Below, one piece after another: positions 1 through 10,404 of a stretch of 35,528 bases of DNA; the first letter of the stretch is position 1; each line of letters begins with the position of its first letter. The notes beneath the pieces are model-generated. The model did no database searches, was not told the origin of the DNA, and saw only the letters and a program-made list of their open reading frames with translations. Source of the stretch: Caldilineae bacterium (GTDB lineage Bacteria > Chloroflexota > Anaerolineae > DTLA01). The translations under genes were made by a program, and so were the position numbers. The stretch is from positions 1-35,528 of the forward strand of contig JBBIHX010000013.1 of the NCBI GenBank assembly GCA_037446815.1, read 5' to 3'.

Positions 1-172
1 GCAACCCCATTATACTCGGGAGGTGCAGCGCTCTCATATAATCAATCTCACGCCCTGGGGATTGCTTCGGGCGCTGCGCGCCCTCGCAATGACAGCCCCA
101 TGCGTAATTCGCGCGGGAGGGATTCTTCGCGGCCCACGGTGTCATCTAGCGCGGCTTGGCCGCCGGGGGCTG

Positions 173-201
173 TTGACGCCGGAGCAGACCTCCCGTATAA
201 T
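173..201 (+). promoter_or_regulatory. sigma70-type promoter of the response regulator
   Basis: TTGACG (173-178), 17 nt spacer, TATAAT (196-201), about 50 nt before the ATG at 250. Confidence 0.7.
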
Positions 202-249
202 GCCCATGCGTGCGGCGGCAATGGGTAGAGACGGTGGAGGGAGACCCAA

Positions 250-954
250 ATGGCGAGGATCGTGCTCATCTCGGACGACCTGGAACTATCCCGTGAGGTG
301 GCCCAGCGTCTGGAGGACAAAGGCCACGTGGTGATTCCCATGGAGTGCATGGAGGCGCGGTTCTACCAGGCGGCGCAATTGCGGCCCGACCTGCTGGTGG
401 CCGATTTCGCTTCCATGTCGCGCGACGCCTCCTCGGCGTTCCAGCGGGCGCTGGCCAATCTTGACCTCAAGTGCCCTGTGCTGGGCATCTTCGGCGCGCT
501 GGATGTGGTGCGCAGCCTGCCCGCCCTGGTGGGGACGGCGGATGCCCTGGCAGGGAAGCAGACGCCGCGCAAAGGCAAGCCCGTCAGCGGCGAGTACGGC
601 TTCATGAGCCTGGACGTGCACCGCCGCGAGGTTACCATCCGCGGGGTCAGCATTCCCCTTACGCCGACGGAGACGCATATTCTCTCCATTCTCGCGGCCA
701 ACGTAGGCAGGTACATCAGCCCGCAGGCCATCGCCTCCGAGATTCAGGGGTACGAGGTGGACGAGCGCGAGGCGGGCGAGATGGTGCGCGTGCACATCCA
801 CAACCTGCGGCGCAAGTTCCAGAAGGCGGGCATTGGCCCCCCGTACATCGTGAGTTCGCGCGGGAAGGGCTACCTGCTGGAGCGCCGCACGCGGCCTCGC
901 GGTAGCCGGGTCAAGGGGCTTGGCGGGCTGCTGGATTCGTCGCCGTCACGCTGA
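250..954 (+). CDS. OmpR/PhoB-family winged-helix transcriptional regulator with degenerate receiver domain
   Basis: N-terminal IVLISDD...PDLLVAD receiver-like segment; C-terminal LTPTE-x2-IL...VRVHIHNLRRK...SRGKGY wHTH; GGAGG upstream. Confidence 0.85.
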   Translation: MARIVLISDDLELSREVAQRLEDKGHVVIPMECMEARFYQAAQLRPDLLVADFASMSRDASSAFQRALANLDLKCPVLGIFGALDVVRSLPALVGTADALAGKQTPRKGKPVSGEYGFMSLDVHRREVTIRGVSIPLTPTETHILSILAANVGRYISPQAIASEIQGYEVDEREAGEMVRVHIHNLRRKFQKAGIGPPYIVSSRGKGYLLERRTRPRGSRVKGLGGLLDSSPSR

Positions 955-1275
955 TCCGCCCGAGTGATGCGAATCCACGCGGATGGGGCGCGTGCGACGC
1001 ACCTGCGAGGTGCGGTGCACGTTGTCCCCGACTGTCTCTGCGAGCGGCGCGCAGCAATCTCCAGGATTGCGTCCACGGATAACGCGGGTTGCACGGATGG
1101 GCGCGAGAGATTCTGCGCGCTGCGCGCCGCAGAATGACAATTGCCGCGGACAGATTCCTGCCGCGCGTTGCCGTGGCGCGTCCCCTGCGGGCTCCACTCA
1201 TCTCCTGCGTTAAGAAACCTGAACGTTCATCGGCCTTCGTCTTGAGATGTCTTAACGCACGCCTACATCTGCGCA

Positions 1276-1284
1276 TGATATAAT
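1276..1284 (+). promoter_or_regulatory. extended -10 promoter for the riboswitch/peptidase transcript
   Basis: TGaTATAAT about 80 nt upstream of the riboswitch; no good -35. Confidence 0.55.
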
Positions 1285-1362
1285 GGGGCAGATTCACAGA
1301 AGATTCACGCCACCCTCCCCATGCCCGACACCCACGCCACCTGGATGTAACTGGATACTGGC

Positions 1363-1459
1363 GAGGTTCCGACAAGGGCAAACCACGGGTGACCGTGGGA
1401 CGCAAAGCCACGGGTCTTGTGGCCTCCATCCCAAGATCGCCGGGCCGCCGAAGAACCTC
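1363..1459 (+). ncRNA. cyclic di-GMP-I (GEMM) riboswitch
   Basis: AAGGGCAAACC-ACGG-GTGA(GNRA loop)-CCGTGG-GACGCAAAGCCACGGGTCTTG...CAAGATCGCCGGGCCGCCGAA matches the c-di-GMP-I consensus; closing helix GAGGTTC (1363-69)/GAACCTC (1453-59); Vc2 G20/A47/C92 equivalents present. Confidence 0.92.
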
Positions 1460-1505
1460 TGTTGTTTTGGTAATCAGGTTCGCCCCCCCAGGGAAGTTGT
1501 TGTAC

Positions 1506-1562
1506 ATGGGAACTGAGCAGCATCGGAACTTCGGCAGCCGACGCAGCGTGAACTGGGGATAG
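1506..1562 (+). CDS. 18-aa small peptide MGTEQHRNFGSRRSVNWG (putative precursor peptide)
   Basis: ATG 1506 to TAG 1560-62, AGGGAAG upstream; last five codons encode exactly the SVNWG unit repeated in both downstream peptidases; below the ORF-track size cutoff. Confidence 0.7.
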   Translation: MGTEQHRNFGSRRSVNWG

Positions 1563-1587
1563 ACAGACCGAAGGAGGTCAGCAGGAA

Positions 1588-3171
1588 ATGGAGACCCGCG
1601 TAGGCCGGCTTTTTCGGTTACCTGTGTACCTTGTGCTTGTCCTCTGTCTAGTCCTCGTTACCCTCTTGCCCGCCGCCCGCCCGGCGGCTCGTCCGCTGCC
1701 CATTGACCGCGCGCTGTATGCGATTCTCGCGCAGGCAGAGAGCGATGCTCCCATCGCCGTCATCGTCCAGAAAGCGACCCCCGGCGCCGAGGCCGAGGCG
1801 ATGGTGCGCAGCCTTGGCGGCGAAGTCGTGCGCTCCTGGAGCATCATCCCGGCGTTCCTGGCCAACCTATCGGCCGATGCCATCCGCCAACTGGCCCAAA
1901 GTGGCCTCGTGCGCTGGATATCGTGGGATAGCCCGGTGGTGAAGCAAGATAGCGGCGAAGCGGACACAATCGCTCTCATCGGCGCGTACCTCAACGCCTA
2001 CAATGCCACCATCGGCGCGACCACGGCGTGGAACTACGGGTTCACGGGCAGGGGCATTGGGGTCGCCGTGGTGGACAGCGGCGTAACGCCCAAGACCGAC
2101 TTCCTGGCGACTTCATACAGCCTGACGCGCACAAGCCGACTGGTGGCCAACGTTACCTTTGCCAACACCATCTCGGCCTACACCAGCCGCGTCAACACCA
2201 CCACGTCGGACATCTTCGGCCACGGGACTCATATCGCCGGCATCATCGGCAGCAACGGAGCCAGTTCGGGGGGCACCTTCAAGGGGGTGGCACCCGATGT
2301 GAACCTCATCAACCTGCGGGTCGCCGATTTCAACGGCCGCGCCTTTGAATCGGACATGGTGGACGCGCTCCAGTGGATTTACGATCACCGCAAGGAGTAC
2401 AACATCCGCGTCGTGAATGTGTCCATGAACTCGGCCACGGCGCAATCGTACCACACCAGCCCGCTGGACGCCGCGCTGGAAATCCTCTGGTTCAACGGCG
2501 TCGTCGTCATCGTATCGGCGGGGAACAACGGCGGCGTAGCGACAATGGGCACGGTTCCGGGTGTCCTGTATCCGCCCGCCAACGACCCGTTCGTCATCAC
2601 GGTGGGCGCATCGGATGACATGGGCACGTCGTACACGTGGGATGACATCCTGGCTCCGTTCTCGGCCTACGGGGTTACCGAGGACGGCTTCTGGAAGCCG
2701 GAACTGGTAGCCCCCGGCGCGCACATCATCAACCTGCTGGCCAGCCCCGACTGCACCATCGCGGTTCAGCACCCCGAGGCCCTGTACGGAGGCGCGTTCC
2801 TGCGGCTATCGGGCACGTCTATGTCCGCCGGCGTGGCGAGCGGGGCGGTGGCCCTGCTGCTCCAGGCGCGGCCCGACGTGAACCCCGACCAAGTGAAATG
2901 GGCGCTGATGAACTCGGCCACGCCGCTGCGGCACACCGGCGCGGGGGCGGGCATCCTCAACGTCTGGGCCGCCATCAACCTGGGCAAGTACGACACGGCC
3001 AACACCGGCACCGTGGCCAGCAAACTGCTGTGGACGGGCTCCGACCCTATCAACTGGGGTTCGGTGAATTGGGGCAGCGTGAATTGGGGTTCGGTCAATT
3101 GGGGTAGCGTGAACTGGGGCAGCGTCAACTGGGGTTCGGTCAACTGGGGAAGCGTCAATTGGGGCTACTAG
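1588..3171 (+). CDS. secreted subtilisin-like S8 serine peptidase (AprX-like) with C-terminal (SVNWG)7 tail
   Basis: Signal peptide, I9-like prodomain, triad VAVVDSG / HGTHIAG / GTSMS, SAGN oxyanion Asn; RBS AAGGAGG 1571-77. Confidence 0.93.
   Translation: METRVGRLFRLPVYLVLVLCLVLVTLLPAARPAARPLPIDRALYAILAQAESDAPIAVIVQKATPGAEAEAMVRSLGGEVVRSWSIIPAFLANLSADAIRQLAQSGLVRWISWDSPVVKQDSGEADTIALIGAYLNAYNATIGATTAWNYGFTGRGIGVAVVDSGVTPKTDFLATSYSLTRTSRLVANVTFANTISAYTSRVNTTTSDIFGHGTHIAGIIGSNGASSGGTFKGVAPDVNLINLRVADFNGRAFESDMVDALQWIYDHRKEYNIRVVNVSMNSATAQSYHTSPLDAALEILWFNGVVVIVSAGNNGGVATMGTVPGVLYPPANDPFVITVGASDDMGTSYTWDDILAPFSAYGVTEDGFWKPELVAPGAHIINLLASPDCTIAVQHPEALYGGAFLRLSGTSMSAGVASGAVALLLQARPDVNPDQVKWALMNSATPLRHTGAGAGILNVWAAINLGKYDTANTGTVASKLLWTGSDPINWGSVNWGSVNWGSVNWGSVNWGSVNWGSVNWGSVNWGY
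3046..3165 (+). repeat. coding 15-bp tandem repeat: PINWG + 7 x SVNWG
   Basis: Eight in-frame 15-nt units; the seven SVNWG units all differ at synonymous sites. Confidence 0.97.
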
Positions 3172-3220
3172 GGCTGCCCGTTCGGAAACTTTGCGAGAAC
3201 ATAGTCGGAGGCAGAAGCAA

Positions 3221-4861
3221 ATGATTCAAGCAGGCAGACGACTCATCTGGCGACTGGCACTGACCATTGTCGTGCTCGCGGCCATGATTGCCGTGTTCGC
3301 GCCGAGTCCTGCGTCTGCCGAGCCCCCCAGGCTAGACGAACAGTTGTCGGCGATGATAGCCAACGCAACCGAGGACATGGTGCCGGTCATCGTGCGGGTG
3401 TACGATGGCAATGACGCAGCCGCGGTCAAGGCGCTTGTGGAGCGGCTGGGCGGCCAATTGGGCGTGGACTTGGAGTTCATCCAGGCCTTCGCCGCTCGGG
3501 TGCCCACGGCGGCCCTGGCGCGGCTGGGTAGCGACCGCCGCGTGCGCTCGGTTTCCTACGACCGCCCGATTCTGCCGCAGGACGACGGCGAGGCCGCAGA
3601 CCCCGAATGGACGCCGAGGCCGGACCGAATCGTCAACACGTACAACTTCACCATCGGCGCCGACAGGGCATGGGCCGAGGGCATCACCGGCCGGGGCGTA
3701 ACCATCGCCGTTGTGGACAGCGGCGTGCAGTATCACCTAGACCTCTTGAGCAACATCCTGATGGGCTGGAGCATCTTTGCGACGGGGTTGCCTGCCCATG
3801 TGGACAATTACGGACACGGGACCCATGTGGCCGGCATCATCGCGGGCACGGGGGCCTTCAGCCAGGGCAAGTATGTGGGCATCGCGCCCAACGCGAAGAT
3901 CCTGCCCGTGCGGGTGTGCGACGCCAACGGAGCCAGCAGCGAGTCATCCCTGGTGGCCGGCCTCCAGTGGGTGTATTACAATCGCAACCTCTACAACATC
4001 CGCGTCGTCAACGTCTCACTGAACTCTGATAGCCTCCTCTCGTATCACCAAAGCCCGCTGGACGCGGCGCTGGAAATCCTATGGTTCAACCGCATCGTGG
4101 TGGTGGTGTCGGCGGGGAATAGCCGCGGACAGGTCTACCCGCCCGCCAACGACCCCTTTGTCATTACCGTTGGCGCGGTGGACGAGCACGGGACGCGCAC
4201 GACCGCCGATGATACCGTCGCGCCCTTCTCCGGCTATGGCACCACGCCCGAAGGGTTCAGCAAGCCCGACTTGGTGGCGCCGGGCGTCAACATTGTGAGC
4301 ACGCTGGCGTATACCGGCTGCCGGCTGAGCCGCGAACACCCCGACCATCGGGTGGACACGCGCTACTTCCGCCTCTCGGGCACGTCCATGGCGGCGGCGG
4401 TAACCAGCGGCGCGGTGGCCCTGCTGCTCCAGGCGCGGCCCAACCTGAACCCTGATCAGGTGAAGATGCTCCTGAAGGCTTCGGCCACGCCGTTGAACCA
4501 GACGGGCGCGGGGGCGGGCATCCTCAACGTGTACAACGCGATTCACATGCAAGGCGTCGGCACTGCCAACACCGGCACGCCCGCGTCGGCGCTCCTGTGG
4601 ACAGGCTCCGATCCCGTGAATTGGGGGTCGGTGAACTGGGGCAGCGTCAACTGGGGGTCGGTGAATTGGGGTAGCGTGAACTGGGGCAGTGTCAACTGGG
4701 GCAGCGTCAACTGGGGATCGGTGGATTGCTCGTCGGTGAACTGGGGGCGCAAGCCGCGCATCCCGGTTTCCGTCAACTGGGGCTGGATTCCGACGAGGTC
4801 GGTCAACTGGGGTTGGGCCCCGGCCCGGTCTGTAAACTGGGGCGGCGGCCCGCGAAAATAA
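3221..4861 (+). CDS. second secreted S8 serine peptidase (paralog) with SVNWG repeat tail
   Basis: Likely start ATG 3221 (GGAGG 3207-11); signal peptide ending ASA-E; IAVVDSG / HGTHVAG / GTSMA; shares YHxSPLDAALEILWFN and LLWTGSDP with the first peptidase. Confidence 0.93.
   Translation: MIQAGRRLIWRLALTIVVLAAMIAVFAPSPASAEPPRLDEQLSAMIANATEDMVPVIVRVYDGNDAAAVKALVERLGGQLGVDLEFIQAFAARVPTAALARLGSDRRVRSVSYDRPILPQDDGEAADPEWTPRPDRIVNTYNFTIGADRAWAEGITGRGVTIAVVDSGVQYHLDLLSNILMGWSIFATGLPAHVDNYGHGTHVAGIIAGTGAFSQGKYVGIAPNAKILPVRVCDANGASSESSLVAGLQWVYYNRNLYNIRVVNVSLNSDSLLSYHQSPLDAALEILWFNRIVVVVSAGNSRGQVYPPANDPFVITVGAVDEHGTRTTADDTVAPFSGYGTTPEGFSKPDLVAPGVNIVSTLAYTGCRLSREHPDHRVDTRYFRLSGTSMAAAVTSGAVALLLQARPNLNPDQVKMLLKASATPLNQTGAGAGILNVYNAIHMQGVGTANTGTPASALLWTGSDPVNWGSVNWGSVNWGSVNWGSVNWGSVNWGSVNWGSVDCSSVNWGRKPRIPVSVNWGWIPTRSVNWGWAPARSVNWGGGPRK
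4613..4843 (+). repeat. coding repeat: PVNWG + 10 x SVNWG, the last ones separated by spacers
   Basis: 6 tandem SVNWG, SVDCS, SVNWG, RKPRIPV, SVNWG, WIPTR, SVNWG, WAPAR, SVNWG. Confidence 0.97.
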
Positions 4862-4874
4862 CGGTTCGCGATTC

Positions 4875-4910
4875 ACCCTGCCCGGGCGCACTCGGGCAGG
4901 GTTTGCGTTT
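4875..4910 (+). terminator. putative intrinsic terminator after the peptidase pair
   Basis: CCCTGCCCG / CGGGCAGGG stem followed by TTTGCGTTT. Confidence 0.6.
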
Positions 4911-4937
4911 GACCTCTCGGTAGTAGCATGCTACTAT
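4909..4937 (+). promoter_or_regulatory. promoter with overlapping palindromic operator for the GGDEF/HD-GYP gene
   Basis: TTGACC-17nt-TACTAT with TG extension; perfect 16-bp palindrome TAGTAGCATGCTACTA at 4921-4936. Confidence 0.55.
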
Positions 4938-4968
4938 TCGCCTACTCCGCAGAGCAGAGAGGGGAGCG

Positions 4969-7707
4969 ATGAAAGACCTGTCAAGGCCCGCGCGAGCCTA
5001 CATTCTGGGCATTCTCGGGTTGACGATAGTTGCCGTCCTGTTCGGCGCCGTGGCCTCGCCGCCGCGGAATGTGGATTGGGCCTTGTTGGGGTTCTTGCTC
5101 GTCGGCGCGATGACGGCGCAGTATTTCACCGTCGTTACGCCCAAGCATCAGCACTATTACCTGACGCCGGCCTTCTTCTTCGCCAGCATCGTGCTCCAAC
5201 ACCCGCTGATTTTCGCCCTTGTGGTGGCGCTGGGGCATGTGCCCGAGTGGCTCAAAGTCAAGTATCGCTGGTATATCCAATCGTTCAACATTGCGGGGCA
5301 CACGCTGGCCGGGTTCGCGGGCAAGACGGTGCTGGCGCTGTTGGTGGGGGCCGAGCGAAACCCCACGCCGAACGTAGCAGGCATCGTGGCGGTGCTGGCT
5401 GCGGCCTCCACGTACATTCTGGTGAACCACCTGCTGGTCGGCATCGTCCTCATGCTGGCGCGCAACGTGAGCCTCCGCGAGTCCCAGGTGCTCAGCCCCG
5501 CGAATCTGCTGACCGACCTGGCGCTGGCGTGCGTGGGCGGGGCCATGGCCTTTCTCTGGATGCTGGGGCCGTGGCTGGTGATCCTGGGCACCGCGCCGCT
5601 GCTGCTCATTCACCGCGCCCTGAGCATTCCGGCCCTGCGCGAGGAGGCGCAGGTGGACGCGAAGACAGGGCTGTACAACGTCAAGTACTTCACCACCAGT
5701 CTGAACGATGAGTTGCGGCGCGCGCGGCGATTCGGTCGCCCCCTTGCCGTCATCATGGCCGATTTGGACGGCTTGCGGCACATCAACAACACGCATGGGC
5801 ACCTGGCGGGCGACGCCGTACTGGCCGCCATCGGCAAGATCATCCGCGAGCAGGTGCGTGAGTACGACGTGGCGGCCCGCTTCGGCGGCGAGGAGTTCGC
5901 CCTCCTCATGCCCGAAACCACCACCGACGAGGGGTATGTGGTGGCCGAGCGCATTCGCAAAGCGGTGGAGTCCACGCCGATTCAGATTCCGACGCGGGTG
6001 GAGCCTATCTACGTAACCATCACGGCGGGGGTGGCGTCCTATCCCACCGATGGGTACGAGCCGCAGCAACTGCTCCATGCTGCCGACGTGGCGCTGTATC
6101 AGGGCAAAGCCTCGGGCAAGAACCGCGTCCGCATGTCGGCTCCTGGACAAGGGCCGGAGCCGCCGATTCCCCCGCCGCCCGCCGACGGCGCCGAGCAGCC
6201 GCCCGCCGCGTCCCCCCCTGGCTCGGAAGGGGCCCCCGCGCCCATGGCTGCTCCGCTCAACCCCGCGGCCGACACGGGGGAGCGTTTCGCTGCGCAGGCG
6301 AAGCCGCGACGCATGCCGAAGGCGGCATGGGCGGTCGTTAGCGCGGTGATGATGTGCGGCCTGATTCTGTGGGCGCTCTATCTCCCGTCCGCGAGCCGAT
6401 TTGACGTAACAGGGCTGCTGATCTTGGCGGGTTTCGCCGGCTTGGCCGAACTGTTCTCCGTGGACCTGTACGGGGCGAGTACCGTGTCGGTCAGTTTCGT
6501 GGCGATTTTTGCGGCGGCGCTGATGTACGGGCCGGTGGGCGCGGCTGTGGTCGGCCCGGTCATCGCCATCGGCCACTGGATCAAGCGGCGGCCTCGCATC
6601 TACCAGGTGGTATTCAACGCGGCGAATCACACGATTTCCAGCACCGTAGCGGCGTTCCTGTTCGCGCTGGCGGGCGTCAAACTCCGACCGGAGAACATTT
6701 TGTTGCTGGCGGTGCCGGTGCTGCTCGCGGGCCTCGTCAACTACTTTATCAGCACCATGCTGGTATCCACGGCGCTGGGGCTGTCGGAGAGGACAAACCC
6801 ATGGCGGTTGTGGAAGGAGCAGTTTCGCTGGTTGGCCGTGCACTACGTGGTGATGGCATTCCTGGCGATGTTCTTCGCGCTGGCGTATCTGACGTTTGGC
6901 GTCTGGGGAGTGGTGGCCTTTCTTGCGCCGCTGCTCATCATGCGCTACGCGCAGAAGCAGTACGTGGATCAGACGGTGCAGAACGTGGCAGCCCTGCGCA
7001 AGGTGAACCAGGAACTGGCCCGCGCGAACGAAGAGATACAAATGATCAACGACGAACTGCTGATGACGCTGGCCAGCGCCATTGACGCGCGCGACCCGTA
7101 TGTGTACGGCCATTCGGCCCGCGTGGCCGAGTACGCTGTGGCCCTGGCGCGAGAGTTGAGCCTGCCGCCGGAGCGGGTGGAACTGGTGCGACGAGCGGCC
7201 CTGCTCCACGACGTGGGCAAGATCGGCCTGCCCGAGCGCGTGCTCAACAAGCGCGGCAACCTCACGGTTGAGGAGTACGAGGTGATGAAACAACACGCCC
7301 TGGCCGCCGATGGCATCCTGGGCGTGTGCCACCAACTCCAGAATCTGGTGCCCATTGTCTCGGCGCACCATGAACGCTGGGATGGCAAGGGCTATCCCAA
7401 AGGCTTGGCCGGCGACAGCGTCCCGTTGGAGGCGCGCATTTTGGCCCTGGCCGACGCGGTGGAAGCCATGGCGTCCGACCGAACCTACCACCGCGCCAAG
7501 CCCGCCGAGGAGATTCTGGCCGAAGTGGAGCGGAACGCCGGAACGCAGTTTGACCCTGCGGTGGCCGCGGCGTTTGTGCGCGTCGTGAAACGCGAGGGCC
7601 CGCAGTTCATCCGCAACTCGGCGCAAGAGGTCAACAGCCGCCGCGGCACAGGCCAATGGCAACCGCCGGAGTGGCTATCGCAAGACTGGCAGACGGAGGC
7701 CGGGTAG
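4969..7707 (+). CDS. membrane diguanylate cyclase / HD-GYP phosphodiesterase fusion with two multi-TM sensor regions
   Basis: Hydrophobic N-terminus; DAKTGLYN...REYD (RxxD I-site)...RFGGEEF; Pro-rich linker; second TM region; LLHDVGK and HHERWDGKGYP. Confidence 0.92.
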   Translation: MKDLSRPARAYILGILGLTIVAVLFGAVASPPRNVDWALLGFLLVGAMTAQYFTVVTPKHQHYYLTPAFFFASIVLQHPLIFALVVALGHVPEWLKVKYRWYIQSFNIAGHTLAGFAGKTVLALLVGAERNPTPNVAGIVAVLAAASTYILVNHLLVGIVLMLARNVSLRESQVLSPANLLTDLALACVGGAMAFLWMLGPWLVILGTAPLLLIHRALSIPALREEAQVDAKTGLYNVKYFTTSLNDELRRARRFGRPLAVIMADLDGLRHINNTHGHLAGDAVLAAIGKIIREQVREYDVAARFGGEEFALLMPETTTDEGYVVAERIRKAVESTPIQIPTRVEPIYVTITAGVASYPTDGYEPQQLLHAADVALYQGKASGKNRVRMSAPGQGPEPPIPPPPADGAEQPPAASPPGSEGAPAPMAAPLNPAADTGERFAAQAKPRRMPKAAWAVVSAVMMCGLILWALYLPSASRFDVTGLLILAGFAGLAELFSVDLYGASTVSVSFVAIFAAALMYGPVGAAVVGPVIAIGHWIKRRPRIYQVVFNAANHTISSTVAAFLFALAGVKLRPENILLLAVPVLLAGLVNYFISTMLVSTALGLSERTNPWRLWKEQFRWLAVHYVVMAFLAMFFALAYLTFGVWGVVAFLAPLLIMRYAQKQYVDQTVQNVAALRKVNQELARANEEIQMINDELLMTLASAIDARDPYVYGHSARVAEYAVALARELSLPPERVELVRRAALLHDVGKIGLPERVLNKRGNLTVEEYEVMKQHALAADGILGVCHQLQNLVPIVSAHHERWDGKGYPKGLAGDSVPLEARILALADAVEAMASDRTYHRAKPAEEILAEVERNAGTQFDPAVAAAFVRVVKREGPQFIRNSAQEVNSRRGTGQWQPPEWLSQDWQTEAG

Positions 7708-7989: not shown

Positions 7990-8061
7990 TATCTTCCAGG
8001 GCCCATGCCACCCGCGGGGGCAGCGATGCATACAATCGCCCCAATGAGGGAGGGCCTGAAG

Positions 8062-10404
8062 ATGGCTATCGTACATGAGGTGATGAAATTGCAGGAAACG
8101 GCAGGGGGAGCTGCCCTAATCGTAGAGGCGGCCACACCAGAGGAAATGACGCGCATCGCCCGCATGCTGGCGGAGGTTGCGCCGTGGGTTATGCCCGTGT
8201 TCGCCGCCTCTACGTCGCAGGCGAGCGCATTGGAGGCCGCCCTCGCCCAGCACAACGGCCTGGTCGTGCAACGGGTTCGCTCCGCGGACGAACTGGCGGC
8301 GCTGCTGGATGCGCTCCGCCGAACGGGTACACCGCGCCGGCCCCCGTCCTGGCTGGGCGGGCTGCTGCGGCTAAGCCTCGCCGTGAGTTCCATCCAGGAC
8401 CAGGACTCGCTGCTGGAGGAACTCCTGGGGCAGGCGACGGCGCTCACCGATGCGGTGCACGGGTGCGTGTGGCTGGTGGACGACGCCGATGGGGTGCTGA
8501 TGCATAGGGCATGCGCGCCGGATTCGCAGTCGGCCCACGCGGCGCTTCCGCCCGGCCTCCCCGAATGGGTGCAGCAGAACCGCAAGGCCATCCTCATCAC
8601 CGCCGCGCCCGACCCCTCGCTCTTGGCGTACACGCGCGCCACGGGGAGCGGGCTTGCCGTCCTGTCCATCCGCCTGGACCGCCGGGCGAAAGGCGAGGCG
8701 CTGGCCGTCCCGCTGATGGCTGCAAGCCGACTGCTGGGCGTGCTGTGCCTCCAGGCGCGGGAGTCGCGCGGAGCCTTCTCCGGCGAGCAGTTTGAGGCGG
8801 TGTCGGTGATGGCGGCGCAGGTGGCCATGAGCCTGGAAGGGACGCGCCTTTTCGCCCGCGTACAGCAGGGCAAGAAGGAATGGGAGGCGACGTTTGACGC
8901 CATCGGCGAGGCGGTGCTGCTCATCAGCCCCGATGGCAAGATTCTCCGGGCGAATCAGGCAGCGGCGCGGGTGGCCGGGCGCCGCTTTACAGACATGGTC
9001 GGCGAGCGCTGTTGCCAGGTGATGGGCGAAACGCGCGAGGCGCCCGACGGCTGCCCACTGGCGCAGGTGCTCCAGACGCGCCGCCCCGCTTCCGCCGAGA
9101 TCACCGACCGCGACGGCTCTCGCATTCGGCATGTGGCCATCTACCCCATCTTTGACGCGCGCGGCGAAATCCAGGCGTTGGTGGAGTACGCCCGCGACAT
9201 CACGCAAATCAAAGCGGCCCAGGCGCGCCTCCTGCAGGCCGAAAAACTGTCGGCCCTGGGCGAGTTGACCGCGGGCGTGGCCCACGAGTTGAACAACCCG
9301 CTGACCTCTATCTTGGGCTTCGTCCAGTTGCTGCAGCGCACCGAACTTTCAGAACGCCAGTCATCCTATCTGGGCGTGATTCACGACGAGACGCGCCGCG
9401 CCGCCCGCATCGTGCGCAACCTGCTCACCTTTGCCCGGCGCCAGGAGCCGGAGAAGAAGATGCTGGACATCAACACCATCCTGGAGGAGACCCTGTCGCT
9501 CCTGGCGTACCAACTGCGCGTGAGCGGCGTCAAGGTGGAGCAAGACCTGGATCCCAACCTGCCCAGGACGGCCGCCGACCCCTACCAGTTGCAGCAGGTG
9601 TTCGTCAACATCATCAACAACGCCCAGCAGGCCATGCAAGAGGCGCACGGCGGCGGCACGCTCACCATCCGCACGATGCCGGTGCTCCGGCCCGCGGGAT
9701 ACGCGCACAACTCCACCCTGAACCTGTCCGACCAACCCGAGTCCACCATGGAGAGTTGGGTGCGCGTGGAATTCACCGACGACGGCCCGGGCATCCCGCC
9801 AGAACTCCTGACGCGCATCTTTGACCCGTTCTTCACGACCAAGGCGCCCGGCAAGGGCACCGGCCTCGGGCTGAGCGTGTGCCACGGCATCGTCCGCGAC
9901 CACGACGGACACATCTGGGCCGAGAGCACGCCAGGACGCGGCGCTACGTTCATCCTGGAATTGCCGGTGCGTGGAGTGCGCAAGGCCGAGGCGGAGAAGG
10001 TCGCCCACGACCGCCTGCCCGAACTGCCGCCGGGCAATGTGCTGGTCATGGACGATGAGGAGAGCACGCTGCGCCTGCTCAAGGAACTTCTGTCCCAACA
10101 CGACCAGAAGGTGGACACGCTGGCGGAGGGCGCGGAGGCGAAGGAGCGCATCGCCGCCACCAGTTACGACGTTATTCTGTGCGACGTGCGCATGCCCGGC
10201 TTCGGGGGCGATGCGCTGTACGAGTACCTGAAGGAGCACCGCCCGGAACTGGTCAAGCGCCTTGTGTTCATCACCGGCGACACGGCCAGCGCCCAGACGC
10301 GGGCCTTCTTGCGCAAGGCGGGCCGCCCGGTGGTGGAGAAGCCCTTTGACGTGGCCGAACTTCTCCGCATCATGCAGAACATCTACCGCGACGCGCGGGA
10401 ATAG
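8062..10404 (+). CDS. hybrid sensor histidine kinase (GAF-PAS-HisKA-HATPase-REC)
   Basis: EWEATFDAI PAS start, AHELNNPL H-box, QVFVNIINNA, DDGPG, FFTTK, GTGLGL, C-terminal VMDDE..ILCD..EKPF; start uncertain (8005-8083). Confidence 0.92.
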   Translation: MAIVHEVMKLQETAGGAALIVEAATPEEMTRIARMLAEVAPWVMPVFAASTSQASALEAALAQHNGLVVQRVRSADELAALLDALRRTGTPRRPPSWLGGLLRLSLAVSSIQDQDSLLEELLGQATALTDAVHGCVWLVDDADGVLMHRACAPDSQSAHAALPPGLPEWVQQNRKAILITAAPDPSLLAYTRATGSGLAVLSIRLDRRAKGEALAVPLMAASRLLGVLCLQARESRGAFSGEQFEAVSVMAAQVAMSLEGTRLFARVQQGKKEWEATFDAIGEAVLLISPDGKILRANQAAARVAGRRFTDMVGERCCQVMGETREAPDGCPLAQVLQTRRPASAEITDRDGSRIRHVAIYPIFDARGEIQALVEYARDITQIKAAQARLLQAEKLSALGELTAGVAHELNNPLTSILGFVQLLQRTELSERQSSYLGVIHDETRRAARIVRNLLTFARRQEPEKKMLDINTILEETLSLLAYQLRVSGVKVEQDLDPNLPRTAADPYQLQQVFVNIINNAQQAMQEAHGGGTLTIRTMPVLRPAGYAHNSTLNLSDQPESTMESWVRVEFTDDGPGIPPELLTRIFDPFFTTKAPGKGTGLGLSVCHGIVRDHDGHIWAESTPGRGATFILELPVRGVRKAEAEKVAHDRLPELPPGNVLVMDDEESTLRLLKELLSQHDQKVDTLAEGAEAKERIAATSYDVILCDVRMPGFGGDALYEYLKEHRPELVKRLVFITGDTASAQTRAFLRKAGRPVVEKPFDVAELLRIMQNIYRDARE

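What the first reader, a model, noticed from the sequence alone, without database searches (positions are those of the whole stretch)
1506..1562. Unannotated 18-aa ORF ending exactly in the protease repeat unit (…RR-SVNWG-stop)
Between the riboswitch and the first peptidase, AGC GTG AAC TGG GGA TAG encodes SVNWG-stop in frame with ATG 1506 (MGTEQHRNFGSRRSVNWG); an NFG variant of NWG precedes it. A chance match of the motif plus stop within a leader of about 130 nt is very unlikely. It is the first ORF under riboswitch control. It has no signal peptide, so it could be a stand-alone precursor, an intracellular ligand or inhibitor, or the 3' relic of a deleted third peptidase gene.
Basis: partly seen in the sequence, partly recalled or inferred. 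Interest (0 to 1): 0.82.

Follow-up and report, generated by a model that had tools for sequence, protein, structure and literature searches.

The report
Repeat-derived mini-ORF inside a riboswitch leader
A conserved 18-codon reading frame between a c-di-GMP-type riboswitch and two secreted proteases really does end in the proteases' own five-residue repeat, but it looks like a copied piece of the repeat reused as regulatory RNA, possibly read by ribosomes, not a free peptide.

Summary
ATG 1506 to TAG 1562 encodes MGTEQHRNFGSRRSVNWG*. It lies between a c-di-GMP-I-GGC aptamer (1368-1453) and the first of two S8 peptidases with (SVNWG)n tails. SVNWG occurs only 3 other times in the six-frame translation of the 3.19-Mb genome, and the 19-nt block 1544-1562 is 17/19 identical to a repeat junction in peptidase 2. 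Chance is excluded; a copy of the repeat is the likely origin.

Six of 7 distinct versions (8 leaders, one genus-level clade) keep start, frame and SVNWG-TAG; one lacks a start.

The conservation is at nucleotide level. The block is invariant apart from one substitution, whereas only 27% of amino-acid-invariant codons in the peptidase keep one codon. The N-terminal half is not conserved as protein.

The NFGS codons are an 11-nt complement of the aptamer's P1 3' strand. The strand from there to the peptidase start is strongly complementary to the aptamer's 3' half (z -2.8 to -6.8), burying the RBS.

I read it as part of the riboswitch expression platform. Translation as a cis-acting uORF is a near-equal rival. 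A free peptide, an inhibitor or a neutral relic are unlikely. The invariance of the SVNWG-stop block itself remains unexplained.

The parts
1276..1284 (+). Putative extended -10 promoter element TGATATAAT; the transcript would start near 1291
   Evidence: Read from the sequence. TGnTATAAT is kept in the 5 genus genomes aligned. The promoter scan did not report it because there is no good -35. This is inference.
1363..1459 (+). c-di-GMP-I-GGC aptamer (Rfam match 1368-1453) with a 7-bp extension of P1 (GAGGUUC 1363-1369 pairing with GAACCUC 1453-1459)
   Evidence: RF03167, 68 bits against a gathering score of 59, E 3.3e-14. The P1 extension is read from the sequence. The aptamer is near-invariant in A1.
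1460..1468 (+). U-rich tract UGUUGUUUU directly after the extended P1
   Evidence: partly kept in relatives. No terminator-like site was called anywhere in the leader.
1483..1496 (+). C-run plus AGGGAAG. This is a weak SD-like motif 10-15 nt upstream of the sORF start. CCCCAG (1486-1491) can pair with CUGGGG (1553-1558)
   Evidence: The C-run is kept in all 8 leaders (6-8 C). AGGGA is AGAGA in L032. The CCCCAG/CUGGGG helix appears in the local folds of 8 of 8 sequences, but total energies are no better than shuffles.
1506..1562 (+). The sORF: 18 codons plus TAG, MGTEQHRNFGSRRSVNWG*
   Evidence: Start, frame and SVNWG-TAG are kept in 6 of 7 distinct versions from 8 leaders.
1529..1539 (+). Anti-P1 strand CUUCGGCAGCC (within codons N8-R12), the complement of aptamer 1443-1453 (GGCCGCCGAAG)
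   Evidence: 10 pairs, all paired in every sequence with letters (100% of cells). It is a perfect 11 bp in the four leaders whose aptamer reads GGCUGCC.
1539..1544 (+). Variable codons 12-13 (CGA CGC; QS, QN, QC, QR in relatives); carries a 3-nt deletion in L037
1544..1562 (+). Invariant 19-nt block CAGCGUGAACUGGGGAUAG (SVNWG plus stop), a copy of a repeat-unit junction
   Evidence: Identical in 7 of 8 leaders; G003 has one T-to-A change. It is 17/19 identical to 4702-4720. It has no significant pairing partner.
1563..1571 (+). Variable spacer between the sORF stop and the peptidase SD (8-13 nt in relatives, indels not in threes)
1572..1598 (+). Peptidase-1 ribosome binding site: SD AGGAGG 1572-1577, AUG 1588, codons 2-4. 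GGAGGUC (1573-1579) pairs with the aptamer P3 loop GGCCUCC (1421-1427). GAGACCCG (1591-1598) pairs with the P3 5' strand CGGGUCUU (1411-1418)
   Evidence: RNAalifold. MFE of 7 of 8 single sequences. Pair counts of 96-97% of cells paired. Duplex z-scores.
1588..3171 (+). Peptidase 1: S8 subtilase with a signal-like N-terminus and a C-terminal INWG(SVNWG)7Y tail at 3049-3168
   Evidence: Pfam PF00082 (141.6 bits) and PF01469 Pentapeptide_2 (38.7 bits, cut-off 26.4).
3221..4861 (+). Peptidase 2: a paralogue, about 55% identical, with an NWG repeat tail at 4616-4843 that is spaced out at its end
4875..4902 (+). Terminator-like hairpin plus a T-run that closes the two-gene unit

Best explanation
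The 57-nt frame is a real, conserved sequence feature. Its functional product is RNA, not a peptide. It is the spacer and switching strand of the translational expression platform of a c-di-GMP-I-GGC-type riboswitch that controls the two-peptidase operon.

Shown:
- The NFGS codons (1529-1539) are the complement of the aptamer's P1 3' strand.
- The strand from there through the peptidase SD and first codons is collinearly complementary to the aptamer's 3' half (P1 3' strand, P3 3' strand, P3 loop, P3 5' strand).

Inferred:
- Without ligand this long duplex unzips the aptamer and buries the peptidase RBS.
- With ligand the aptamer closes and the RBS is released, making an ON switch.

Origin: the last 19 nt (SVNWG plus TAG) are a copy of a repeat-unit junction from the peptidase tail that was taken into the leader and then frozen at nucleotide level. 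This origin is inferred from 17/19 identity, with TCG in the gene versus TAG in the leader.

The ORF-like shape (start, frame, stop) is a legacy of that coding origin plus RNA constraints. Any peptide made is a by-product.
For: (1) Rfam aptamer at 1368-1453. The operon ends at a terminator-like site at 4875-4902.

(2) RNAalifold on 8 leaders pairs aptamer columns 121-164 collinearly with leader columns 246-319. Of 255 cells, 98.4% are paired, against 27-48% when partners are slid by 1-3 columns.

(3) RNAduplex energy between the aptamer's 3' half (43-45 nt) and the downstream strand (67-73 nt) is -44.8 to -63.8 kcal/mol. This gives z of -2.8 to -6.8 against 300 dinucleotide shuffles each. Between 0 and 3 of 300 shuffles do as well.

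(4) The MFE of 7 of 8 single sequences pairs the SD and start region with the P3 5' strand and loop.

(5) The constraint is at nucleotide level. In the peptidase-1 orthologues of the same 8 sequences, only 83 of 305 amino-acid-invariant degenerate columns keep one codon (S 14/30, V 2/29, N 8/24, G 5/40). Yet AGC GTG AAC TGG GGA TAG is identical in 7 of 8. GGA is a rare Gly codon here, at 5%.

(6) Codons 2-8 and 12-13 vary at all three codon positions.

(7) G003 has no start codon in this frame.

(8) The SD-like motif is weak and is AGAGAAG in L032.

(9) Repeat origin is supported.
Against: - The SVNWG-stop block on its own is no more complementary to the aptamer's 3' half than shuffles (z -0.8 to +0.4; 219-630 of 1000 shuffles do as well).
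- It has no consistent partner elsewhere in the mRNA.
- Local hairpins are weak, at -1 to -4 kcal/mol with z near 0.
- RNA pairing therefore does not explain the invariance of the very block the finding is about.
- No pair shows a compensatory change; 0 of 32 do. The sequences come from one genus-level clade.

Features that look like coding constraint:
- A start codon sits at the same column in 7 of 8 leaders (ATG in 6, GTG in L032).
- There is no indel in the 23 nt between the start and the anti-P1 strand, while the flanks have many.
- The only internal indel apart from G003's 1-nt deletion at the lost start is 3 nt.
- Conservation ends exactly at TAG.
- The one genome without a start also carries the only substitution in the block.

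The ON direction is uncertain. The aptamer-closed consensus fold also offers an SD partner in the spacer, UCC(U/C)AU.
Confidence: 0.5

Rival explanations
1. A translated, cis-acting upstream ORF embedded in the expression platform. Ribosomes start at AUG 1506 and unzip the anti-P1 duplex as they read codons 8-18. They stop at UAG 1560-1562, only 8-13 nt before the peptidase SD. This opens the SD helix and lets the peptidase be translated, by coupling or re-initiation. The invariant last codons and GGA-UAG set the pausing or termination behaviour. The peptide itself has no function after release.
For: - A start codon sits at the same alignment column in 7 of 8 leaders: ATG in 6, GTG in L032, which also has an in-frame ATG 2 codons upstream.
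- The start-to-anti-P1 distance is constant while the neighbouring segments vary by 1-6 nt. The indel inside the frame in L037 is 3 nt.
- Conservation stops exactly at TAG, and the spacer after it is free to vary.
- G003, the only leader without a start, also has the only change in the block (GTG to GAG) and keeps a TTG-started ORF in another frame that ends at the UAG abutting the SD (read from the sequences).
- The final Gly uses the rare codon GGA.
- There is a precedent. The ppe2 B12 riboswitch of M. tuberculosis controls a translated uORF needed for PPE2 expression by termination-reinitiation (PMC11260477: abstract and sections 20 and 22 read).
Against: - The SD-like motif is weak, distant, and not kept in L032.
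- The peptidase has its own strong AGGAGG, so it does not need a landing pad.
- Constitutive translation of the frame would override the switch.
- G003 does without the start.
- Peptide-level selection alone does not predict invariant synonymous sites.
- The start-codon evidence is weak statistically. What all 8 leaders share at that place is GGA, not AUG.
- No expression data are available.
Confidence: 0.33
2. A free, trans-acting 17-20-residue peptide: a stand-alone precursor of an SVNWG pentapeptide, or an intracellular ligand or inhibitor of the peptidases or of their repeat tails.
For: - The C-terminus is exactly one repeat unit followed by a stop, in 6 of 7 versions.
- S8 peptidases lie directly downstream.
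- By recall only, from no call here: Bacillus Phr signals are C-terminal pentapeptides released by subtilisin-family proteases.
Against: - There is no signal peptide or export partner.
- The N-terminal 8 residues and residues 12-13 are unconstrained.
- The conserved part is conserved as nucleotides, including a rare codon.
- One species lacks the start.
- The more distant riboswitch-controlled NWG peptidase (L027) and the NWG peptidases without a riboswitch (L026, L029, G040) have no such ORF upstream.
Confidence: 0.07
3. The invariant block is a binding site for a protein or a trans RNA, or works at DNA level. One candidate is the OmpR-family regulator encoded upstream. Its likely operator, GATTCAC-N4-GATTCAC, sits at 1291-1308, and the block contains the inverted half-site GTGAAC.
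For: - The 19-nt invariance has no RNA partner.
- TTCACGC (1304-1310) and GCGTGAA (1546-1552) are reverse complements.
- The direct repeat is kept in the relatives.
Against: - A 7-nt match in 134 nt on two strands is expected by chance about 2% of the time, and it was found post hoc.
- No CsrA-type protein was found in the genome, which is 93.6% complete.
- Nothing ties the regulator to this site.
Confidence: 0.07
4. A neutral fossil: the 3' end of a deleted third peptidase gene with no present function.
For: The DNA identity to a repeat junction, with a single TCG/TAG difference creating the stop. The NFG...SVNWG spacing is in phase, as two units would be.
Against: - The block is invariant, apart from one substitution in G003, across species whose peptidases are 72-86% identical, while the adjacent leader segments diverge freely.
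- Homology to the peptidase does not extend beyond about 18 nt.
- No relative keeps a gene there.
Confidence: 0.03

Closest known systems
c-di-GMP-I (GEMM-I) riboswitches with translational expression platforms; Rfam variant RF03167 c-di-GMP-I-GGC
   Same: The aptamer scores above the family threshold. An anti-P1 strand lies downstream and the SD is masked by alternative pairing. The gene context is c-di-GMP-related, with a GGDEF plus HD-GYP protein next door.
   Different: - The anti-aptamer strand is about 70 nt long and collinear with the whole 3' half of the aptamer.
- The anti-SD sits in the aptamer's own P3 loop.
- The platform contains a conserved ORF-shaped segment copied from the regulated gene's repeat.
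- The second RF03167 copy in the same genome (C31) simply overlaps its SD with P1.
- The ligand of the GGC variant was not checked here.
Riboswitch-controlled translated leader uPPE2 upstream of ppe2 in M. tuberculosis (PMC11260477)
   Same: A short ORF lies between a riboswitch aptamer and the main gene, is partly conserved, and is the first ORF under the switch. Translation of the uORF affects the downstream gene.
   Different: - In ppe2 the main gene has no SD of its own, and stop and start overlap (AUGA).
- Here the peptidase has AGGAGG and lies 20-25 nt after the stop, in no fixed frame.
- Translation is untested here.
Leader ORFs in riboswitch or attenuator leaders, such as mgtL in the Mg2+-sensing mgtA leader and trpL (recalled; only search listings seen)
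   Same: A short ORF overlaps alternative RNA pairings, so ribosome position could choose the fold. The leader ORF echoes the composition of what it regulates.
   Different: - No intrinsic terminator was found in the leader.
- There is a single Trp codon, not a run.
- The echo is an exact DNA copy of a repeat unit, not codon enrichment.
Pentapeptide_2 repeats (PF01469)
   Same: The peptidase tails match this family (38.7 and 36.4 bits, cut-off 26.4). The sORF ends in one such unit.
   Different: One unit cannot form a repeat domain. The sORF was not scored against the family.

Membership tests
c-di-GMP-I-GGC riboswitch aptamer (RF03167) | Covariance-model score at or above the curated gathering score | tested here: met
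   68 bits against 59, E 3.3e-14, model positions 1-80 of 80. The same holds in relatives L023, L024, L025 and L027 (65-70 bits).
c-di-GMP-I-GGC riboswitch aptamer (RF03167) | Binds its ligand and changes fold | not testable with these tools
   No probing is possible. The ligand of the GGC variant was not verified; the two papers read only list the model name.
Riboswitch expression platform (switching strand) | A downstream strand complementary to the aptamer's P1 3' strand, mutually exclusive with P1 | tested here: met
   1529-1539 pairs with 1443-1453. There are 10 pairs, all paired in every sequence with letters.
Riboswitch expression platform (switching strand) | Alternative fold masks the RBS of the regulated gene | tested here: met
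   The SD and codons 2-4 pair with the P3 loop and 5' strand in 7 of 8 MFE folds. The duplex z is -2.8 to -6.8. This is prediction only.
Riboswitch expression platform (switching strand) | Covariation supporting the alternative helices | tested here: not met
   0 of 32 pairs have changes on both sides; only G-C to G-U type changes occur. The sequences are too alike to say more.
Translated regulatory uORF (uPPE2 type) | Conserved start codon and frame | tested here: inconclusive
   A start is present at the same column in 7 of 8 leaders, and the frame is kept across a 3-nt indel. G003 lacks a start.
Translated regulatory uORF (uPPE2 type) | Main gene lacks its own SD, and stop and start overlap (termination-reinitiation) | tested here: not met
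   AGGAGG is present in 7 of 8 leaders (GGGAGG in L037). The gap from TAG to the start is 20-25 nt.
Translated regulatory uORF (uPPE2 type) | Evidence of translation | not testable with these tools
   No RNA run was listed. No ribosome profiling or proteomics is available.
Protein-coding gene under purifying selection on its peptide | Excess of synonymous over non-synonymous change | tested here: not met
   The variable codons change at positions 1, 2 and 3 alike. The conserved codons show no synonymous change at all, against a 27% baseline of codon identity in the peptidase.
Pseudogene relic of a third peptidase | Homology to the peptidase beyond the repeat unit, or an intact gene at this place in relatives | tested here: not met
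   The local alignment covers 18 nt only. There is no gene at this place in the 8 aligned leaders or in L027.
Pseudogene relic of a third peptidase | Neutral decay | tested here: not met
   The 19-nt block is identical in 7 of 8 leaders.
Secreted signalling-peptide precursor (Phr-like) | N-terminal signal peptide and a cognate receptor gene | tested here: not met
   The product is 18 hydrophilic residues with no hydrophobic stretch. No receptor-like family appears among the 23 window ORFs scanned with Pfam, 9 of which had no family hit. The family's features are recalled, not from a call.

The most novel reading that the evidence does not exclude
The frame is translated, and its invariant end (SVNWG, rare GGA, UAG) is a nascent-chain and termination sensor. 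That sensor would tie opening of the peptidase RBS to the cell's ability to make or handle the very pentapeptide unit that the two peptidases carry 8 and 11 times. Alternatively, the frame yields inside the cell the same pentapeptide that the secreted peptidases could shed from their tails. Either reading would make a riboswitch and a repeat-mimicking leader peptide act together on one mRNA.
Probability: 0.1. Interest if true: 0.85.

Novelty: new variant of a known kind. Interest (0 to 1): 0.5.

Why it matters
Riboswitch leaders are usually read as pure RNA. Cases where a short ORF sits inside the expression platform are few and recent (mgtL, and the M. tuberculosis B12 switches).

Here a piece of the regulated gene's own coding repeat has been copied into the leader and then held invariant across species, next to a clear anti-aptamer strand. 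If the block works as RNA, this is a clean example of coding sequence being reused to build a riboswitch platform. If it is translated, it would be a new kind of leader peptide that mimics the product's repeat.

Either way it gives a short, well-defined set of mutants to test. It also links c-di-GMP signalling to secreted proteases in Anaerolineae, a little-studied group.

Tried and rejected
- **RNA expression data.** No RNA holder was listed for 1250-1900, so there was nothing to lay reads on.
- **CsrA-type control.** The four GGA motifs suggested this, but no CsrA (PF02599) was found in the genome, which is 93.6% complete. Idea dropped.
- **Pairing of the SVNWG block with the aptamer.** No better than shuffles.
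- **Pairing with anything in the operon mRNA.** No partner at a consistent place.
- **Local hairpins.** Anti-P1 with the block's first half, and the C-run with CUGGGG, are not better than shuffles. The aptamer-closed consensus fold is weak, at -11.2 kcal/mol.
- **Read-through, hopping or fusion of the sORF to peptidase 1.** The TAG-to-start distance is 20-25 nt, with remainders 1, 2, 1, 0, 1, 1, 1, 1. No conserved fusion frame exists.
- **An 'anti-repeat' (CCCCAGTT) as a general feature of NWG-peptidase leaders.** Seen upstream of the gene only in L027; the one L026 hit lies just past the gene's stop. It is absent from L029 and L039-L044.
- **Structure of peptidase 1.** This was meant to show whether the tail folds or docks in the active site. 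The model is poor (mean pLDDT 49.7, tail about 25-35) and was not used.
- **Complex prediction.** Not run, because the sORF is below the 30-residue minimum.
- **Earlier findings of this scan.** Nothing was found near, by words or by sequence.
- **Literature.** The search for SVNWG, VNWGS or NWGSV found 17 papers; the 8 listed are unrelated. The search for c-di-GMP riboswitch, protease and Chloroflexi found nothing relevant among the 10 listed.
- **Unusable metagenome loci.** L033 is chimeric, and L034 and L038 start inside the peptidase. All three lack the leader.

Full report
**What is there**

The window is contig C13 of a 3.19-Mb, 65% GC genome assembled from a metagenome. Its relatives are titled Chloroflexota or Anaerolineae.

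Reading 1-6000 confirms the finding letter for letter. ATG at 1506 opens ATG GGA ACT GAG CAG CAT CGG AAC TTC GGC AGC CGA CGC AGC GTG AAC TGG GGA TAG, ending at 1562. This reads MGTEQHRNFGSRRSVNWG*.

The surrounding features are:
- Upstream, Rfam places a c-di-GMP-I-GGC aptamer at 1368-1453 (68 bits, threshold 59).
- Downstream, after AGGAGG at 1572-1577, an S8 peptidase starts at 1588. It ends in INWG(SVNWG)7Y.
- A paralogue at 3221-4861 has a longer NWG tail that is spaced out at its end.
- Both tails match Pfam Pentapeptide_2.
- A terminator-like hairpin at 4875-4902 closes the unit.
- The next gene encodes a GGDEF plus HD-GYP protein.

**Is it more than chance?**

Yes. In the six-frame translation of the whole genome, SVNWG occurs 21 times. 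Seventeen are in the two peptidases, 1 is here, and 3 are elsewhere. That gives about 6e-5 for a 134-nt leader.

At DNA level the 19-mer at 1544-1562 is unique. With at most 3 mismatches it matches 4 repeat units of the two peptidases and 3 unrelated sites on other contigs. The best match is 4702-4720, which differs at 2 of 19 positions, one of them TCG in the gene versus TAG in the leader. The leader-versus-tails local alignment scores 31 and beats all 500 shuffles, whose maximum is 28.

The simplest reading is common descent: a repeat-unit junction was copied into the leader.

**Relatives**

The peptidase pair, the aptamer and the leader are present in all 4 other genomes of the genus held and in metagenome contigs. 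Twelve loci carried a leader. I dropped four (L023, L024, L025, L036) because they are the same records as, or near-identical to, G004, G003 and G002. I aligned the remaining 8 as A1. L033, L034 and L038 have no leader.

The 8 leaders give 7 distinct sORF versions:

| Source | sORF product |
|---|---|
| G000 | MGTEQHRNFGSRRSVNWG |
| G004 | MGNQQYRNFGSQSSVNWG |
| G001 | MGNEPYRNFGSQNSVNWG |
| G002 and L035 | MGNEPYRNFGSQCSVNWG |
| L032 | GTG at the same column plus an in-frame ATG two codons upstream: MYVETKRNRDFGSRRSVNWG |
| L037 | peptidase only 72% identical; a 3-nt deletion: MGSKQRGHFGRSSVNWG |
| G003 | no start codon in frame (1-nt deletion at the ATG, TGA just upstream) and SENWG |

G003's contig is titled with 4.45x coverage.

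A more distant riboswitch-controlled NWG peptidase (L027, 46-48% identical) has two aptamers in tandem and no such ORF. NWG peptidases in L026, L029 and G040 have no aptamer at Rfam's gathering threshold (L026, L029 and L006/G040 were scanned) and no NWG frame upstream. No relative has a peptidase gene in place of the sORF.

**What kind of constraint acts on it?**

Conservation is sharply patterned:
- Codons 2-8 and 12-13 change freely at all three codon positions.
- ACUUCGGC.GC and the 19 nt CAGCGUGAACUGGGGAUAG do not change at all, apart from one T-to-A in G003.
- Conservation stops exactly at TAG. The 8-13 nt before the SD then vary in sequence and length.

For a baseline I used peptidase 1 from the same 8 sequences. 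Of 305 amino-acid-invariant, degenerate columns, only 83 (27%) keep one codon in all 8 (S 14/30, V 2/29, N 8/24, G 5/40). Identical AGC-GTG-AAC-GGA would therefore be expected about once in a thousand under peptide-level selection alone. GGA is also a rare Gly codon here, at 5%.

The conserved half is therefore held as nucleotides, and the variable half is not held as protein.

**The RNA reading**

CUUCGGCAGCC (1529-1539, the 'NFGS' codons) is the complement of the aptamer's P1 3' strand at 1443-1453. It is a perfect 11 bp in the four leaders whose aptamer reads GGCUGCC.

RNAalifold on A1 extends this into a collinear set of helices:
- the P1 3' strand with 1529-1539;
- CGC with GCG (1546-1548);
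- CCCA with UGGG (1554-1557);
- the P3 loop GGCCUCC with the SD GGAGGYC (1573-1579);
- the P3 5' strand CGGGUCUU with codons 2-4 of the peptidase (1591-1598).

Supporting numbers:
- 98.4% of 255 cells are paired, against 27-48% with slid partners. No pair has a compensatory change, because the sequences are too alike.
- Seven of 8 single-sequence MFE folds pair the RBS with P3.
- The duplex between the aptamer's 3' half and the downstream strand is -44.8 to -63.8 kcal/mol. This gives z of -2.8 to -6.8, and 0-3 of 300 dinucleotide shuffles do as well.

I therefore take the segment from 1529 to about 1598 to be the switching strand of a translational platform. Without ligand it opens the aptamer and buries the RBS. 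With ligand the RBS is free. The ON direction is inference, since the aptamer-closed consensus also offers a spacer partner for the SD.

**What this does not explain**

The block the finding is about, SVNWG plus stop, is not significantly complementary to the aptamer when taken alone (z about 0; 219-630 of 1000 shuffles do as well). It has no partner at a consistent place in the operon mRNA. Its local hairpins are weak. Only CCCCAG (1486-1491) with CUGGGG (1553-1558) recurs in all 8 folds.

The invariance of GUGAA and of GAUAG is unexplained.

**The case for translation**

- A start codon stands at the same column in 7 of 8 leaders.
- The 23 nt from the start to the anti-P1 strand never change length, while the segments on both sides do.
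- Apart from G003's 1-nt deletion at the lost start, the only indel inside the frame is 3 nt.
- Conservation ends at the stop.
- The one leader without a start also carries the one substitution in the block.

Against translation:
- The SD-like AGGGAAG is weak, distant, and AGAGAAG in L032.
- What all 8 leaders share at the 'start' is GGA rather than AUG.
- The peptidase has its own AGGAGG.
- Unregulated translation through the anti-P1 strand would defeat the switch.

A published precedent exists for a riboswitch-controlled translated leader ORF needed for the downstream gene: ppe2 in M. tuberculosis (PMC11260477; abstract and sections 20 and 22 read). Its architecture differs, with no SD on the main gene and an overlapping stop and start.

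**Verdict**

I rate the readings as follows.

| Reading | Probability |
|---|---|
| Repeat-derived, nucleotide-constrained part of the riboswitch expression platform, with the ORF shape inherited from its coding origin | 0.5 |
| Same element also translated as a cis-acting uORF whose terminating ribosome helps open the RBS | 0.33 |
| Free peptide | about 0.07 |
| Protein or DNA-level binding site | about 0.07 |
| Neutral fossil | about 0.03 |

**Limits**
- All 8 leaders come from one genus-level clade.
- There is no covariation and there are no expression data.
- The structure model of the peptidase was too poor to use.
- The aptamer's ligand was not verified.
- The names mgtL, trpL and Phr are recalled, not taken from a call, apart from the listing.

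Noticed in passing
window 1291-1312: Two 11-nt direct repeat units, GATTCACAGAA and GATTCACGCCA, sit right after a putative extended -10 (TGATATAAT, 1276-1284). They are kept in the genus. This looks like an operator for an OmpR/PhoB-type regulator. The gene upstream (250-954) has only the Trans_reg_C domain in Pfam, with no receiver domain detected.
   Followed up: partly
window 1207-1214 and 1251-1258: Inverted repeat GCGTTAAG ... CTTAACGC spanning the region upstream of the -10. GCGTTAAGAAACCTGAAC is nearly invariant in the 5 genus genomes.
   Followed up: no
window 1304-1310 and 1546-1552: TTCACGC near the 5' end of the leader is the reverse complement of GCGTGAA inside the invariant block. 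This could be a long-range RNA helix or a third, inverted regulator half-site. G003 has changes in both copies, and they are not compensatory.
   Followed up: partly
G000 contig C31:9013-9091 (L021 1501-1579): A second c-di-GMP-I-GGC aptamer in the same genome (68.8 bits). Its P1 3' strand runs straight into the SD (CCGAAGGAGG) of a small secreted-looking protein. This is a much simpler platform than the one in the window.
   Followed up: partly
window 4969-7707: A 912-residue membrane protein with GGDEF, MASE9 and HD-GYP-type (HD_5) domains lies directly after the riboswitch-controlled peptidases. A GAF-PAS hybrid histidine kinase follows at 8005-10404.
   Followed up: no
window 3049-3165 and 4616-4717: Within the repeat arrays the Ser codon mostly alternates between AGC and TCG, and Val, Asn and Gly codons also vary from unit to unit. 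The protein repeat is therefore perfect while the DNA repeat is not.
   Followed up: no
L027 314-398 and about 560-775: The distant NWG peptidase has two aptamers in tandem. Rfam reports only the first at the gathering threshold. The second, seen by eye, carries an insertion of roughly 150-200 nt in its P3 loop. A 23-codon ORF (749-820) runs across its P1 3' strand and ends in DGWSG-stop.
   Followed up: no
L033 1-680: This metagenome contig joins an unrelated open frame to the peptidase at about residue 50 in one 698-residue frame. It is probably an assembly chimera and was left out of all counts.
   Followed up: partly
window 1566-1577: In G000 only, the peptidase RBS reads ACCGAAGGAGG. This repeats the P1 3' strand motif CCGAAG and resembles the P1-SD junction of the C31 riboswitch.
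   Followed up: no
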